DNA of 64,000 bases from Octopus vulgaris. Taxonomy: Eukaryota. This document shows, in pieces, positions 52,454 to 54,929 of this stretch. The position numbers were made by a program. The DNA lies in assembly GCA_951406725.2 (NCBI GenBank), contig OX597821.1, forward strand, positions 62,992,001 to 63,056,000, given 5' to 3'. Within the stretch, counting starts at the first letter, position 1. Every line of letters starts with the position of its first letter.

Positions 52454-54929
52454 TCCTATGTAGGTATAACATGTGGATATCCGGAAAAAAAATTAGATGA
52501 ACTGTTTCTACAAAATCCTTTTATTTACAATTGAATTTATTTCAGTTTAGATCAATAATAGCAAGAAAACCGTACGCTCTTAGAGTAATTCTCAAGGTTA
52601 TGTTACGTTATACAGTTAATGAATAAAGTAATAAGAAAATAAACAAAGGTCAGATTATTTTACAATCGCAGTCAAGACCAGAAACTAAGTACAAACGCTG
52701 ATAGTTTCAAAAAGTAATTTATAACATTTAATTTTAATTTAAAACCTGGATGATATTGCTGTAAATATGGGTATTATTATTTCTTTTTTAGGACTTTCTA
52801 TGCAATATGTTATGGAAAGATATCTGTATATCTATGTGAATTATAACCTAGGATGATTTCATCATTATTATAGAGTTAGCTGTCCCTCAATATTATTACT
52901 TATTCACATATATTCATTATATTTTCGGGATTGAGCATCGTAAAAGCGCTCGAAGTAACGCTTGATATTTTTCTATGAATGGGATAATGGATTATCTTTA
53001 ATGTTGAATAACAATTCACTTGTTTGATTTGTTTATATTTTTAAGAATTCATCATGTGTTAAACGATACTCTTTATAAAGGATCTATAAAAAAATTTGCT
53101 GAAAAACGATTTATTCATATTTATCAATTACGTAAAGACACGAAATTCATATTCTAAAATTTCCTTTGTTTTATATCAAATAAAGTACAAACCCCTTGTT
53201 CTTCCTCTACTTTCAGAATCTGATGATACAAAGCCGGAAACAGGTAAGTAGATACAATATAACTGCAGAAGGTTGTTGGTTACACATAATAATCGAACCT
53301 ATATAAAACCGGCAAAGATATTTTGATTGACATATTTCAAAGCACAGTGGTTTTAACCCTAAACTTCTTTGCAAGTTATCTTCATAAATCTTTCAACAAA
53401 TAAAATTTCGGGTTTCTATTTTATCGATCTTGGAATGATGTATAAGGTGAAATTGTACTCAGAATGGCAATATTCCAAAGTATACTGTCGTAAAATATAA
53501 ATATGCTGCCATTTTATGTGAAAAGAACAACACTGTAGGAAGTAATTCTAGAATGATCTACTAATTTACGAGGTAAAAATTTATAGGTTATGATAGATTA
53601 CTTACGCATTTCCCATAATCATTCGATCAATAATTTTTAAGTATACCAAAGAGATAAGACATTAAAACATATGACTTAAAAGTGCTTCCAAAGAGATACT
53701 TTCACGAACATCAAAATAGTGTAGAACGTTTACATTTCAAAAAGGAGTAAAACAACCCAAATGTTTTTTCATCATTTTATTATCGCATGAAACAAATATT
53801 GAACGCTTAAAGGAGTACACAGCAAACGCAGGAAAATGATTAGTCTCCAATCGTTCGTATTGAACCTTCAACTAAAGTGCAATATACTAAGCCGAAAGAT
53901 GCTGTGTTGCCAAATATTTACCCAATGGAAAATTGTAAATTATGCTACATATTGCTTCTACGTTACAAATTAACACCGGCTTATTTTCAGTTTTTTTACA
54001 AACTGTTTTTTTTTGTTTTATTTATTTGCCTGTATTCAAATTACGTATTTTAAATTTCATATCTAAAATTGCATTGTATTTTCAACTGTAAACTAGATTG
54101 TAAGTATCCCGGAGAGGTATCCAATGGACGACGGGAAGGTCAAGATTTCCGATATCCCGCAAAAGTGACATATTTTTGCAATGAAGGTTTCCAGTTGATC
54201 GGCAATCCTGTGCGAGAGTGCCAGATAAATGGACAGTGGTCAGGATCTCTACCACTATGTAATCGTGAGTGTTAACTATCACTTGTTAATATTACAATTA
54301 TTCTCTTTTCACGTTTTAATGAGGAATATTAACTGTGAAATTTTGTTTAGTACATCGACTGAATACATTAAACATTAGGTATTTTTAGAAAATATTAGGC
54401 CTGTTAAAAGAAGCTCAGACACAAACAAACTACTTATGCTGAATAGGAATCTTATATGAATGTTATAAACAAAGTATTATATTCACTAGTTTCGCCGAGT
54501 GCAACGAAACGGATTTCTCTCAGAATGTAGAGAGACATTTTTATAGTTCATTGCTTTAATTATAATCTTAATCCTGATATAATCAACTCATTTTATTTAT
54601 TTAATATTTGTGTCGTAATTTGAAACAGGCTAAGTCGTTTACTATAAAAATACTTAGAACTATGTGAAGCGATATTCTAGTTTGAAGAATTGTAAGATAA
54701 TAGATTGATTCTACAGAAAGCTGCCTTAGCAGTATCAAGTATATAATAATAAGTGCGCCCTTTTAAAGCCTAACCAGACTCATGGGCCCGGTTTCCCGGT
54801 TTCTAAGGTGTATGTGTTCCCCAGCTGGACGGGACGCCAGTCCATCGCAGCGTTACCCATTTTTGCCAGCTGAGTGAACTGGAGCAACGTGATATCAAGA
54901 ATATACTAAATTACATAAGATGTTACAAA

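What the first reader, a model, noticed from the sequence alone, without database searches (positions are those of the whole stretch)
53217..53243. 27-nt microexon supplies the linker between two CCP domains
Seen: a strong acceptor and a perfect CAG|gtaagt donor enclose 27 nt that keep phase 1 and encode (K)SDDTKPET(D). Skipping it leaves only two residues (T,N) between the last Cys of one CCP and the first Cys of the next, shorter than usual CCP linkers; including it gives an 11-residue acidic hinge. Inference: the hinge is a separate module that is either obligatory or switches inter-domain geometry. Such exons are easily missed by annotation.
Basis: partly seen in the sequence, partly recalled or inferred. 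Interest (0 to 1): 0.72.

Follow-up and report, generated by a model that had tools for sequence, protein, structure and literature searches.

The report
Linker microexon in octopus lev-9-like gene
A real 27-base exon in an octopus gene for a secreted multi-domain protein lengthens the connector between two domains; it is already in public gene models, and its one unusual feature is that this longer connector is seen only in cephalopods.

Summary
Window 53217-53243 (+) is a 27-nt, phase 1-1 exon between a pyrimidine-rich CAG acceptor and the only CAG|GTAAGT in the window. It lies between Sushi/CCP exons 41454-41636 and 54097-54264. Its peptide (K)SDDTKPET(D) sits at exactly this junction in 3 of 3 Octopus sinensis RefSeq isoform representatives retrieved (named lev-9 / CSMD1 / SVEP1). 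An Argonauta hians model has an 11-residue linker there, and an unnamed transcript-sized contig has 13. So the exon is real and already annotated.

New here: 26 of 26 non-cephalopod mollusc orthologues have a 4-residue linker at this junction, so the insert is cephalopod-specific. Cephalopods also carry long spacers at two further CCP junctions. The window holds two more linker microexons (15 and 18 nt) that differ among the O. sinensis isoforms.

Skipping the 27-nt exon would leave 2 residues. None of 950 adjacent CCP pairs measured had fewer than 3. With the strong splice sites, this favours constitutive inclusion, but no RNA data could be examined. The acidic character is not conserved; only the length is. 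The likely role is a passive spacer in a LEV-9/Hasp-like synaptic scaffold protein. Interest is modest.

The parts
17579..17593 (+). Microexon A. 15 nt, phase 1-1, encodes (D)RCEI. Donor is TAG|GCAAGT (a GC donor). It extends the CCP3-CCP4 linker.
   Evidence: Found by six-frame search and read. The peptide CER-DRCEI-DAKFNM-VVCNQ is present in O. sinensis isoform X10 (P0003) and absent from X4 (P0002).
39999..40016 (+). Microexon B. 18 nt, phase 1-1, encodes (D)AKFNM. Acceptor has 12 of 12 pyrimidines. Donor is TGG|GTAAAT.
   Evidence: Present in O. sinensis X10 (P0003) and X13 (P0004), absent from X4 (P0002) and from Argonauta X5 (P0001).
41454..41636 (+). CCP (Sushi) exon. 183 nt, phase 1-1. 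This is the fourth CCP of the O. sinensis protein P0002 (residues 272-332). Donor is CAA|GTAAGT.
   Evidence: sequence; Pfam Sushi, E 8.3e-12; tblastn, 60 of 61 residues identical to P0002.
53192..53216 (+). 3' splice region of the microexon: ccccttgttcttcctctactttcag. 11 of 12 pyrimidines at -15..-4, directly abutting CAG. No TGC within 60 nt upstream.
53217..53243 (+). The 27-nt microexon (C), phase 1-1. It encodes (K)SDDTKPET(D) and raises the CCP4-CCP5 linker from 2 to 11 residues.
   Evidence: The exact peptide is present in P0002, P0003 and P0004. Cephalopod-only insertion.
53244..53249 (+). 5' splice site GTAAGT. With the exon end it forms CAG|GTAAGT, the only copy of that 9-mer in the window on either strand.
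54097..54264 (+). CCP (Sushi) exon. 168 nt, phase 1-1. Fifth CCP (P0002 residues 342-397). Weak acceptor (6 of 12 pyrimidines, TAG). Donor is ATC|GTGAGT.
   Evidence: Sushi, E 1.6e-14; 56 of 56 identical.
57533..57706 (+). CCP (Sushi) exon. 174 nt, phase 1-1. Sixth CCP. Donor reads AAG|GCAAGT (a GC donor).
   Evidence: (Sushi, E 7.3e-09). The O. sinensis models continue ...SRCQ-V..., which needs the exon to end at 57706 (G|TN = V).

Best explanation
Window 53217-53243 is a genuine coding microexon of an octopus 'lev-9-like' gene. The gene encodes a secreted protein with a WAP-like domain followed by 10 CCP/Sushi modules. The exon sits in the phase-1 intron between the exons for CCP4 and CCP5. 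It adds 9 codons, so the inter-cysteine linker is 11 residues rather than 2.

The insertion is specific to the cephalopod lineage. Other molluscs have a 4-residue linker here. Cephalopods also have long spacers at CCP6-7 and CCP8-9, plus optional microexons at CCP3-4. This turns a tightly linked CCP rod into short CCP units joined by longer spacers.

I infer that the exon is included constitutively or nearly so. Its splice sites are near consensus, and the skipped product would have an unprecedentedly short 2-residue junction. I also infer that the peptide works as a length-setting, probably poorly structured hydrophilic spacer and not as a sequence-specific site.

Shown: the exon's existence, position and frame, its presence in public models, and its restriction to cephalopods. 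Inferred: constitutive use, the spacer role, and any synaptic function by analogy with LEV-9/Hasp.

My sub-confidences are: real exon about 0.97; cephalopod-specific insertion about 0.85; mostly or always included about 0.65.
For: Sequence and frame.

Flanking Sushi exons.

Exon-by-exon protein search with the CCP4 exon returned 5 hits among 6 candidates. Three O. sinensis isoform representatives (X4, X10, X13) all read ...MACTKSDDTKPETDCKYPGEV.... Argonauta hians X5 reads C-TKTGVPEQKTD-C (11 residues). The unnamed protein P0005 comes from a 3125-nt contig; its 689-aa ORF means the contig must be spliced RNA. It reads C-NKADITAQPPPPL-C (13 residues).

Identity of the window to P0002: 60 of 61, 56 of 56 and 57 of 57 residues within the exons.

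Linker table: 26 of 26 non-cephalopod mollusc rows have 4 residues at CCP4-5. 7 of 8 cephalopod rows have 11-13.

Tree: the cephalopod rows form one clade (SH-aLRT 100) holding two paralogue groups (99 and 100).

Short-linker test: 0 of 950 adjacent CCP pairs have 2 or fewer residues.

Splice sites: 11 of 12 pyrimidines plus CAG, and a unique CAG|GTAAGT. By contrast, the demonstrably optional microexons A and B have a GC donor and a GTAAAT donor.

At the other expanded junctions, skipping would restore a canonical 4-residue linker (ERVV, QEKN, IPAP). This is read from the isoform differences. Only at this junction would skipping give 2 residues, which fits a long-fixed exon.

AlphaFold2 model of P0002 (mean pLDDT 81.3, pTM 0.26): the pLDDT<50 segments at 142-148, 335-338, 459-464 and 586-609 each lie in one of the four long linkers (the others listed are at the N- and C-termini). 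Blocks that contain 4-residue linkers score 87-92.
Against: No RNA-seq or junction data were available, and the RefSeq models are predictions whose supporting evidence I could not see.

Only representatives of 90%-identity clusters were visible: 3 O. sinensis sequences, while isoform numbering reaches at least X13.

The exon is symmetric, so skipping stays in frame.

In the paralogue, one Argonauta model (P0121) has 4 residues where the Octopus models (P0006, P0122) have 12. A short form therefore exists in at least one model.

Low pLDDT at the linker may only reflect that few aligned rows have residues there.

Factor H work shows long linkers need not be flexible (PMC2806952, passages read).

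The 950 CCP pairs are not independent, because many come from orthologues.
Confidence: 0.75

Rival explanations
1. The exon is a regulated cassette. Tissue- or stage-specific skipping would switch the CCP4-CCP5 junction between a long, loose form and a very tight one, changing the geometry or reach of the scaffold.
For: The exon is symmetric and in frame. The same gene uses optional linker microexons A and B at CCP3-4: X4 has neither, X13 has B, X10 has both. An optional 29-residue spacer exists at CCP8-9, absent in Argonauta X5. The paralogue shows both 12- and 4-residue forms among models.
Against: All 4 models of this paralogue from named species (3 O. sinensis, 1 Argonauta) include the insert, and so does the unnamed transcript P0005. 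Skipping gives 2 residues, seen in 0 of 950 CCP pairs. The splice sites are the strongest of the six exons in the window. The upstream region lacks the UGC-containing layout, with the pyrimidine tract set back from the AG, that is described for SRRM3/4-regulated microexons (preprint 10.1101/2024.09.17.613571, passages read; TGC scan). That rule comes from vertebrates, so applying it to octopus is an inference.
Confidence: 0.2
2. The peptide is a specific functional site, for example an O-glycosylation patch or a protease-processing site, and not a mere spacer.
For: The linker is rich in Ser, Thr, Pro and charged residues. LEV-9 needs C-terminal cleavage for activity, and Hig and Hasp are processed (review PMC9083331, passages read).
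Against: Between the flanking cysteines, Octopus (TKSDDTKPETD) and Argonauta (TKTGVPEQKTD) share only the flanking T-K and T-D. P0005 and the paralogue share nothing obvious. The known LEV-9 cleavage is C-terminal, not mid-array. No glycosylation or cleavage predictor was available.
Confidence: 0.12
3. The exon is not used in vivo. It would be a chance splice-site pair that gene predictors picked up.
For: The loose splice-signal rule gives 7 hits in the window on both strands, so such pairs do arise by chance. The RefSeq models are computational.
Against: The direct join would create a 2-residue CCP junction, never seen in 950 pairs. An equal-length insert is present in Argonauta, and a 13-residue one is present in a transcript-sized contig from another cephalopod. 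The full 9-mer donor is unique in the window.
Confidence: 0.03

Closest known systems
Octopus sinensis RefSeq models named 'protein lev-9 isoform X13', 'CUB and sushi domain-containing protein 1 isoform X10' and 'SVEP1 isoform X4' (P0004, P0003, P0002), and Argonauta hians 'protein lev-9 isoform X5' (P0001)
   Same: They are the same gene. The O. sinensis models contain the identical peptide TKSDDTKPETD between the same CCPs. The three CCP exons of the window match P0002 at 60 of 61, 56 of 56 and 57 of 57 residues. Argonauta has an insert of the same length.
   Different: The window differs by one residue (KMTC versus KMAC), so it may be a sister species or an allele. Nothing else differs. On this evidence the exon is already annotated.
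C. elegans LEV-9 and Drosophila Hasp (secreted WAP + CCP proteins that cluster acetylcholine receptors in the synaptic cleft)
   Same: The architecture is similar. The review PMC9083331 (passages read) gives LEV-9 as one WAP plus eight CCPs, and Hasp as one WAP plus up to 17 CCPs. P0002 has a WAP-like N-terminus and 10 CCPs. NCBI names the mollusc proteins lev-9 or lev-9-like.
   Different: Orthology to the nematode or fly protein was not tested here. The WAP match is below Pfam's cut-off (19.1 versus 20.8 bits). No functional data exist for molluscs: the term pairs 'lev-9'+'cephalopod' and 'lev-9'+'octopus' each returned 0 papers. Whether LEV-9 or Hasp have expanded linkers was not examined.
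Long inter-module linkers of complement factor H CCPs 10-15 (for example the 8-residue CCP12-13 linker)
   Same: They are longer-than-usual linkers between CCP modules that shape the architecture of a CCP string. In fH the linkers span 3-8 residues, and 8 is called the longest in the RCA family (PMC2806952, passages read).
   Different: The octopus linker (11 residues) exceeds that range and is encoded by its own exon. In fH the long linker gave a rigid, tilted junction. Here only a low-confidence model segment is available.
SRRM3/4-dependent neural and endocrine microexons of vertebrates (3-27 nt)
   Same: The size class is the same: 27 nt is the upper bound of the 3-27 nt definition (abstract of 10.64898/2026.05.02.722430, search listing). 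The host gene is also plausibly synaptic.
   Different: There is no TGC within 60 nt upstream. The pyrimidine tract abuts the AG instead of being set back from it, and the 3' splice site is strong rather than weak (compared with the passages of 10.1101/2024.09.17.613571 read). Tissue regulation is unknown.
Alternatively spliced Ser/Thr/Pro-rich (STP) exons of human CD46/MCP (recalled from memory, not checked in any call)
   Same: They are small in-frame exons that encode hydrophilic spacer segments attached to a CCP array.
   Different: The STP segments lie between the last CCP and the membrane, not between two CCPs, and they are well-documented alternative exons. This comparison is a lead only.

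Membership tests
Microexon (size class 3-27 nt) | Exon length of 27 nt or less, with a reading frame preserved | tested here: met
   The exon is 27 nt, phase 1-1, and open in frame. The definition is taken from the abstract listed.
SRRM3/4-type regulated neural microexon | UGC motif between the branch point and the AG | tested here: not met
   There is no TGC in the 60 nt upstream of 53217. The motif is present in 74-79% of dependent microexons according to 10.1101/2024.09.17.613571 (passages read), so its absence is not exclusive.
SRRM3/4-type regulated neural microexon | Pyrimidine tract and branch point displaced from the AG, giving a weak 3' splice site | tested here: not met
   11 of 12 pyrimidines at -15..-4, directly abutting CAG.
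SRRM3/4-type regulated neural microexon | Tissue-restricted inclusion | not testable with these tools
LEV-9 / Hasp-type secreted WAP + CCP proteins | Tandem CCP (Sushi) modules | tested here: met
   Pfam Sushi, E 1e-81, 10 stretches in P0002. My own CCP HMM finds 10 modules. All three window exons score as Sushi.
LEV-9 / Hasp-type secreted WAP + CCP proteins | N-terminal WAP four-disulfide-core domain | tested here: inconclusive
   Pfam WAP matches residues 36-78 with E 0.0017 and 19.1 bits, below the 20.8-bit cut-off. The Patella orthologue gave no WAP hit at E<=1.
LEV-9 / Hasp-type secreted WAP + CCP proteins | Secretion signal | tested here: inconclusive
   No signal-peptide predictor was available. 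The only indication is a low-confidence N-terminal helix at residues 13-33 in the model.
LEV-9 / Hasp-type secreted WAP + CCP proteins | Orthology to C. elegans LEV-9 and a role in acetylcholine-receptor clustering | not tested
   The name was given by NCBI. No nematode LEV-9 sequence was among the 120 listed hits, and function cannot be tested here.
Canonical CCP-CCP junction (linker of 3-8 residues, as in factor H / RCA proteins) | 3-8 residues between the last Cys of one module and the first Cys of the next | tested here: not met
   With the exon the linker is 11 residues, and without it 2. In 950 pairs, 899 have 3-8 residues, 41 have 11 or more, and 0 have 2 or fewer. The fH range comes from PMC2806952.

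The most novel reading that the evidence does not exclude
Cephalopods may have remodelled a LEV-9/Hasp-type synaptic-cleft scaffold. Small phase-1 spacer exons were inserted into the introns at CCP4-5, CCP6-7 and CCP8-9, with optional ones at CCP3-4. This breaks a stiff rod of 4-residue-linked CCPs into short CCP units on flexible tethers. Combinations of these spacer exons, possibly including regulated use of the 27-nt exon, would then tune the protein's reach or valency at cholinergic synapses. On this reading it is a lineage-specific, splicing-based elaboration of synaptic matrix architecture that accompanied the evolution of the cephalopod nervous system.
Probability: 0.15. Interest if true: 0.6.

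Novelty: already known. Interest (0 to 1): 0.3.

Why it matters
The exon itself is ordinary annotation. Public O. sinensis and Argonauta models already contain it, so it mainly serves as a correct positive control for reading microexons from raw sequence.

The comparative pattern around it is more interesting. In a protein family whose nematode and fly members organise acetylcholine receptors in the synaptic cleft, 26 of 26 non-cephalopod molluscs keep canonical 4-residue CCP4-5 junctions. Cephalopods alone carry 11-47-residue spacers at three junctions. At least some of these are encoded by tiny phase-1 exons, and some are optional.

If RNA data show regulated use, this would be a compact example of linker-length tuning of an extracellular scaffold by microexons. 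I found no paper in the searched library on lev-9 in cephalopods or octopus (0 papers).

Tried and rejected

(3) The spliced model was searched exon by exon only (with the CCP4 exon). The joined coding sequence was neither built nor searched. Later searches used database proteins.

(4) Splice-signal scan as sole evidence. It was rejected as decisive because the loose rule gives 7 hits in the window and misses microexons A and B.

(5) Origin from a repeat or transposon. blastn of 52900-53600 against the window found only matches of 20-29 nt elsewhere (E 0.04-0.45). There is no support for this.

(6) Recursive-splicing site. Rejected from the sequence, because the exon starts AATCTG and so no 5' splice site is rebuilt at the junction.

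(7) SRRM4-type regulation. The motif test was not met.

(8) Rfam scan of the window: 0 matches.

(9) Pfam on seven other ORFs, including the minus-strand ORF that overlaps the exon (53213-53392): 0 families.

(10) PDB sequence search. It found only generic complement CCP proteins and no solved LEV-9/Hasp relative.

(11) Literature. 'microexon'+'octopus' found 4 papers. I read passages of one (10.64898/2026.09.05.749416). It uses O. bimaculoides among its species but does not mention this gene in the passages seen. 'microexons'+'cephalopods', 'lev-9'+'cephalopod' and 'lev-9'+'octopus' each returned 0 papers. One search, an any-2-of-5-terms search, was badly designed and uninformative.

(12) No eukaryotic genome collection was available, so orthologous DNA from other cephalopods could not be compared. 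The genome-contig collection (bacteria and archaea) was not used because it is irrelevant.

(13) The species of P0006 could not be read, because its name was cut off in the tables. By the tree, and by its likeness to the O. bimaculoides protein P0122, it is an octopod paralogue.
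Full report
WHAT IS THERE. The window has 33% G+C, no N, and is full of microsatellites and dispersed repeats. On the + strand it carries part of one gene with very long introns. Reading the sequence gives six exons, all in phase 1-1:
- microexon A, 17579-17593 (15 nt)
- microexon B, 39999-40016 (18 nt)
- a CCP exon, 41454-41636 (183 nt)
- the reported microexon C, 53217-53243 (27 nt)
- a CCP exon, 54097-54264 (168 nt)
- a CCP exon, 57533-57706 (174 nt)

The introns between them are 22405, 1437, 11580, 853 and 3268 nt. The three large exons each score as Pfam Sushi, with E 8e-12, 2e-14 and 7e-09.

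CHECK OF THE OBSERVATION.
- The acceptor is ccccttgttcttcctctactttCAG|, with 11 of 12 pyrimidines at -15..-4.
- The exon is AATCTGATGATACAAAGCCGGAAACAG.
- The donor is |GTAAGT.
- In phase 1 it reads (K)SDDTKPET(D), giving C-TKSDDTKPETD-C, which is 11 residues between the cysteines.
- The direct join would read C-T-N-C, which is 2 residues.
- CAGGTAAGT occurs once in the whole window on both strands, at this site. My arithmetic from the base counts expects about 0.2 per strand per 64 kb.

A loose splice-pair rule finds this exon as the only candidate in the 12.46-kb stretch between the two CCP exons (41637-54096). It also finds 6 other hits elsewhere in the window on the two strands. Two of those lie in copies of a dispersed repeat. 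The signals alone are therefore suggestive only.

IS IT USED? The CCP4 exon alone returned 5 proteins among 6 candidates:
- Octopus sinensis RefSeq isoforms X4, X10 and X13. These are variously named SVEP1, CSMD1 and 'protein lev-9'.
- Argonauta hians 'protein lev-9 X5'.
- An unnamed protein, P0005, from a 3125-nt contig.

All three O. sinensis sequences read ...KMACTKSDDTKPETDCKYPGEV..., which is the microexon peptide exactly, at exactly this junction. Argonauta has C-TKTGVPEQKTD-C, the same length. P0005 has C-NKADITAQPPPPL-C, 13 residues. Its 689-aa ORF on a 3.1-kb contig can only be spliced RNA, so a long linker at this junction is present in mRNA of at least one cephalopod.

tblastn of P0002 on the window gives 60 of 61, 56 of 56 and 57 of 57 identical residues in the three CCP exons. 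The window is therefore this gene in O. sinensis or a very close relative. The exon is real, and it is already annotated.

WHAT THE GENE IS. P0002 (765 aa) has 10 Sushi stretches and a WAP-like N-terminal domain. The WAP match has E 0.0017 and 19.1 bits, just under the 20.8-bit cut-off.

A whole-protein search found 158 proteins at E<=1e-20. The best hits after the cephalopods are mollusc proteins that NCBI names 'protein lev-9' or 'lev-9-like', from gastropods, bivalves and a chiton.

According to the review PMC9083331 (passages read):
- C. elegans LEV-9 is a secreted protein of one WAP and eight CCP domains, needed to cluster levamisole-sensitive acetylcholine receptors.
- Drosophila Hasp has one WAP and up to 17 CCPs, and sits in the cleft of cholinergic synapses.

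The octopus protein has this architecture. I tested neither orthology to the nematode protein nor function. No solved structure of this family exists in the PDB copy; only generic complement proteins match.

THE COMPARATIVE RESULT. I aligned 32 mollusc sequences. I also measured every inter-CCP linker with a CCP HMM that I built from 275 modules.

At the CCP4-CCP5 junction, 26 of 26 non-cephalopod rows have 4 residues (KARD, KARN, SARS, IPRN, TPVN and similar). The cephalopod rows have 11, 11, 11, 11, 13, 12 and 12 residues, and one has 4.

The cephalopod rows form one clade (SH-aLRT 100). It splits into the window's paralogue group (P0002, P0001, P0005; support 99) and a second paralogue group (P0006, P0122 from O. 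bimaculoides, P0121 from Argonauta; support 100). This is: quick IQ-TREE, LG+G4, 34 rows. Isoforms P0003 and P0004 and the sponge protein P0027 were left out, and two arthropod rows served as the outgroup.

The insert is therefore a cephalopod novelty. One gain before the duplication followed by one loss or miss, and two independent gains, are equally parsimonious.

The sequence of the insert is not conserved. Net charge is -2 in Octopus, 0 in Argonauta and P0005, and +4 in P0006. Only the length is conserved.

Two other junctions are also expanded only in cephalopods:
- CCP6-7 has 14 residues (47 in P0006) against 4 in most other molluscs (23 of 26; 1 not measurable).
- CCP8-9 has 33 or 24 residues against 4 in the 25 measurable (1 not measurable). 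Argonauta X5 also has 4 here.

The junctions between them (CCP5-6, 7-8 and 9-10) keep 3-4 residues. The cephalopod protein thus looks like short CCP units joined by spacers.

OTHER LINKER MICROEXONS IN THE WINDOW. A six-frame search with pieces that differ among the O. sinensis isoforms located microexon A, (D)RCEI, and microexon B, (D)AKFNM. X10 reads CER-DRCEI-DAKFNM-VVCNQ, so it has both. X13 has B only. X4 and Argonauta X5 have neither.

A has a GC donor (TAG|GCAAGT) and B has a GTAAAT donor. C has the best acceptor-plus-donor pair of all six exons.

OBLIGATORY OR SWITCH? I could not settle this. No RNA data were available. The evidence leans to obligatory, for four reasons.

(i) All 4 models of this paralogue from named species, and the unnamed transcript P0005, carry the insert.

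- 3 residues: 90 pairs
- 4 residues: 758
- 5-8 residues: 51
- 9-10 residues: 10
- 11 or more: 41
- 2 or fewer: 0

The pairs are not independent, because many come from orthologues. In factor H the range is 3-8 (PMC2806952, passages read).

(iii) At the other three expanded junctions, the isoform differences imply that skipping restores a canonical 4-residue linker (ERVV, QEKN, IPAP). This is an inference from protein comparison. Only here do the flanking exons contribute just T and a split codon. The gene can no longer fall back on a normal junction, which is what one expects of a long-fixed exon.

(iv) The 3' splice region has no TGC within 60 nt, and its pyrimidine tract abuts the AG. This is unlike the layout described for SRRM3/4-regulated microexons (10.1101/2024.09.17.613571, passages read). 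That rule comes from vertebrates, so applying it to octopus is an inference.

Against obligatory use: the exon is symmetric, and the paralogue shows both a 12-residue form (P0006, P0122) and a 4-residue form (P0121, a GenBank Argonauta model). The short form may be a missed microexon or a genuine skip.

HOW IT PROBABLY WORKS. An AlphaFold2 model of P0002 was built with 30 aligned sequences (mean pLDDT 81.3, pTM 0.26). The modules are folded confidently. Apart from segments at the N- and C-termini, the pLDDT<50 segments are 142-148, 335-338, 459-464 and 586-609, one in each of the four long linkers. Residues 335-338 are DDTK of the microexon peptide. The 10-residue blocks that contain 4-residue linkers score 87-92.

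This fits a poorly structured spacer. However, low confidence may also reflect the few aligned rows at those columns. The pTM shows that no inter-module geometry can be read from the model. The factor H study found that an 8-residue linker gave a rigid tilt, not flexibility.

My best reading is a hydrophilic spacer whose length, not its sequence, is the constrained feature. It would loosen or re-angle the CCP4-CCP5 junction of a secreted scaffold. A specific modification or cleavage site is a weaker rival, because the sequence is not conserved.

NOVELTY AND VERDICT. The exon is correct, real and already in public gene models. What appears not to be in print is the cephalopod-only expansion of CCP linkers in this family. 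The term pairs 'lev-9'+'cephalopod', 'lev-9'+'octopus' and 'microexons'+'cephalopods' each returned 0 papers. 'microexon'+'octopus' returned 4. I read passages of one, and it did not mention this gene in those passages.

Interest is modest (0.3). It would be higher only if RNA data show regulated use of the spacer exons.

NOT CHECKED. The following could not be done:
- RNA-seq junction counts.
- Orthologous genomic loci from other cephalopods or molluscs, because no eukaryotic genome collection was on hand.
- The full isoform list.
- Signal-peptide and glycosylation prediction.

Noticed in passing
window 17579-17593 and 39999-40016 (+): Two further phase 1-1 linker microexons of the same gene: 15 nt encoding (D)RCEI and 18 nt encoding (D)AKFNM. 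They extend the CCP3-CCP4 linker from 4 to 15 residues and add an unpaired cysteine. They differ among O. sinensis isoforms: X4 has none, X13 has B, X10 has A and B.
   Followed up: yes
window 17594-17599 and 57707-57712 (+): Two of the six exons in the window appear to use GC donors (TAG|GCAAGT and AAG|GCAAGT). The O. sinensis protein models require exactly these exon ends (...EI-D... and ...CQ-V...). Two GC-AG introns in one short stretch of a gene is unusual (from recall, such donors are rare in animals).
   Followed up: partly
proteins P0001-P0006 versus P0007-P0037; the exons lie outside the window: Cephalopod proteins also have long spacers at CCP6-7 (14 residues, 47 in P0006) and CCP8-9 (33 or 24 residues, 4 in Argonauta X5), where most other molluscs have 4 (23 of 26 at CCP6-7; all 25 measurable at CCP8-9). 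Isoform differences imply that the CCP6-7 spacer VSTNDPQARP is a separate exon of about 30 nt and the CCP8-9 spacer one of about 87 nt. Long spacers and tight 3-4-residue junctions alternate along the protein.
   Followed up: partly
proteins P0006, P0121, P0122: Octopods have a second lev-9-like paralogue. Its CCP4-5 linker is 12 residues in the O. bimaculoides model and in P0006, but 4 residues (TAKN) in a GenBank Argonauta hians model. That is either a missed microexon of about 24 nt or a true short form.
   Followed up: partly
window 14754-15228 and 15362-15836: A 475-nt inverted repeat, 100% complementary, with a 133-nt spacer, inside the intron upstream of microexon A. A perfect palindrome of this size may be an assembly artefact or a very recent hairpin-forming duplication.
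   Followed up: partly
window 50887-51413: A second inverted repeat (188-nt arms, 89% complementary, 151 nt apart) embedded in low-complexity sequence, about 2 kb upstream of the 27-nt exon.
   Followed up: no
window 11600-11980, 31796-31995, 33160-33512, 42926-43317 (-), 46030-46204, 46470-46874: A dispersed repeat family of about 380 nt, with 6 copies at 69-79% identity to the first. Two copies contain a 21-nt stretch with acceptor-like and GTGAGT donor-like flanks, which mimics a microexon under a loose splice rule.
   Followed up: partly
protein P0123 versus window 41454-41700: A 94-aa unnamed protein is the CCP4 exon read through into the intron (…KMTCSSKYCYVVQNLFYLVQ…, compare the window's …KMTCTSK*IYVAQHLFYVVQ). 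It comes from an unspliced or genomic contig of a related octopus, and the start of the intron is recognisably similar.
   Followed up: no
window 54072-54096 (+): The acceptor of the CCP5 exon is weak (6 of 12 pyrimidines, TAG) and lies only 853 nt downstream of the strong microexon donor. The microexon splits a 12.4-kb gap into 11.6 kb and 0.85 kb. Whether it helps definition of the downstream exon is untested.
   Followed up: no
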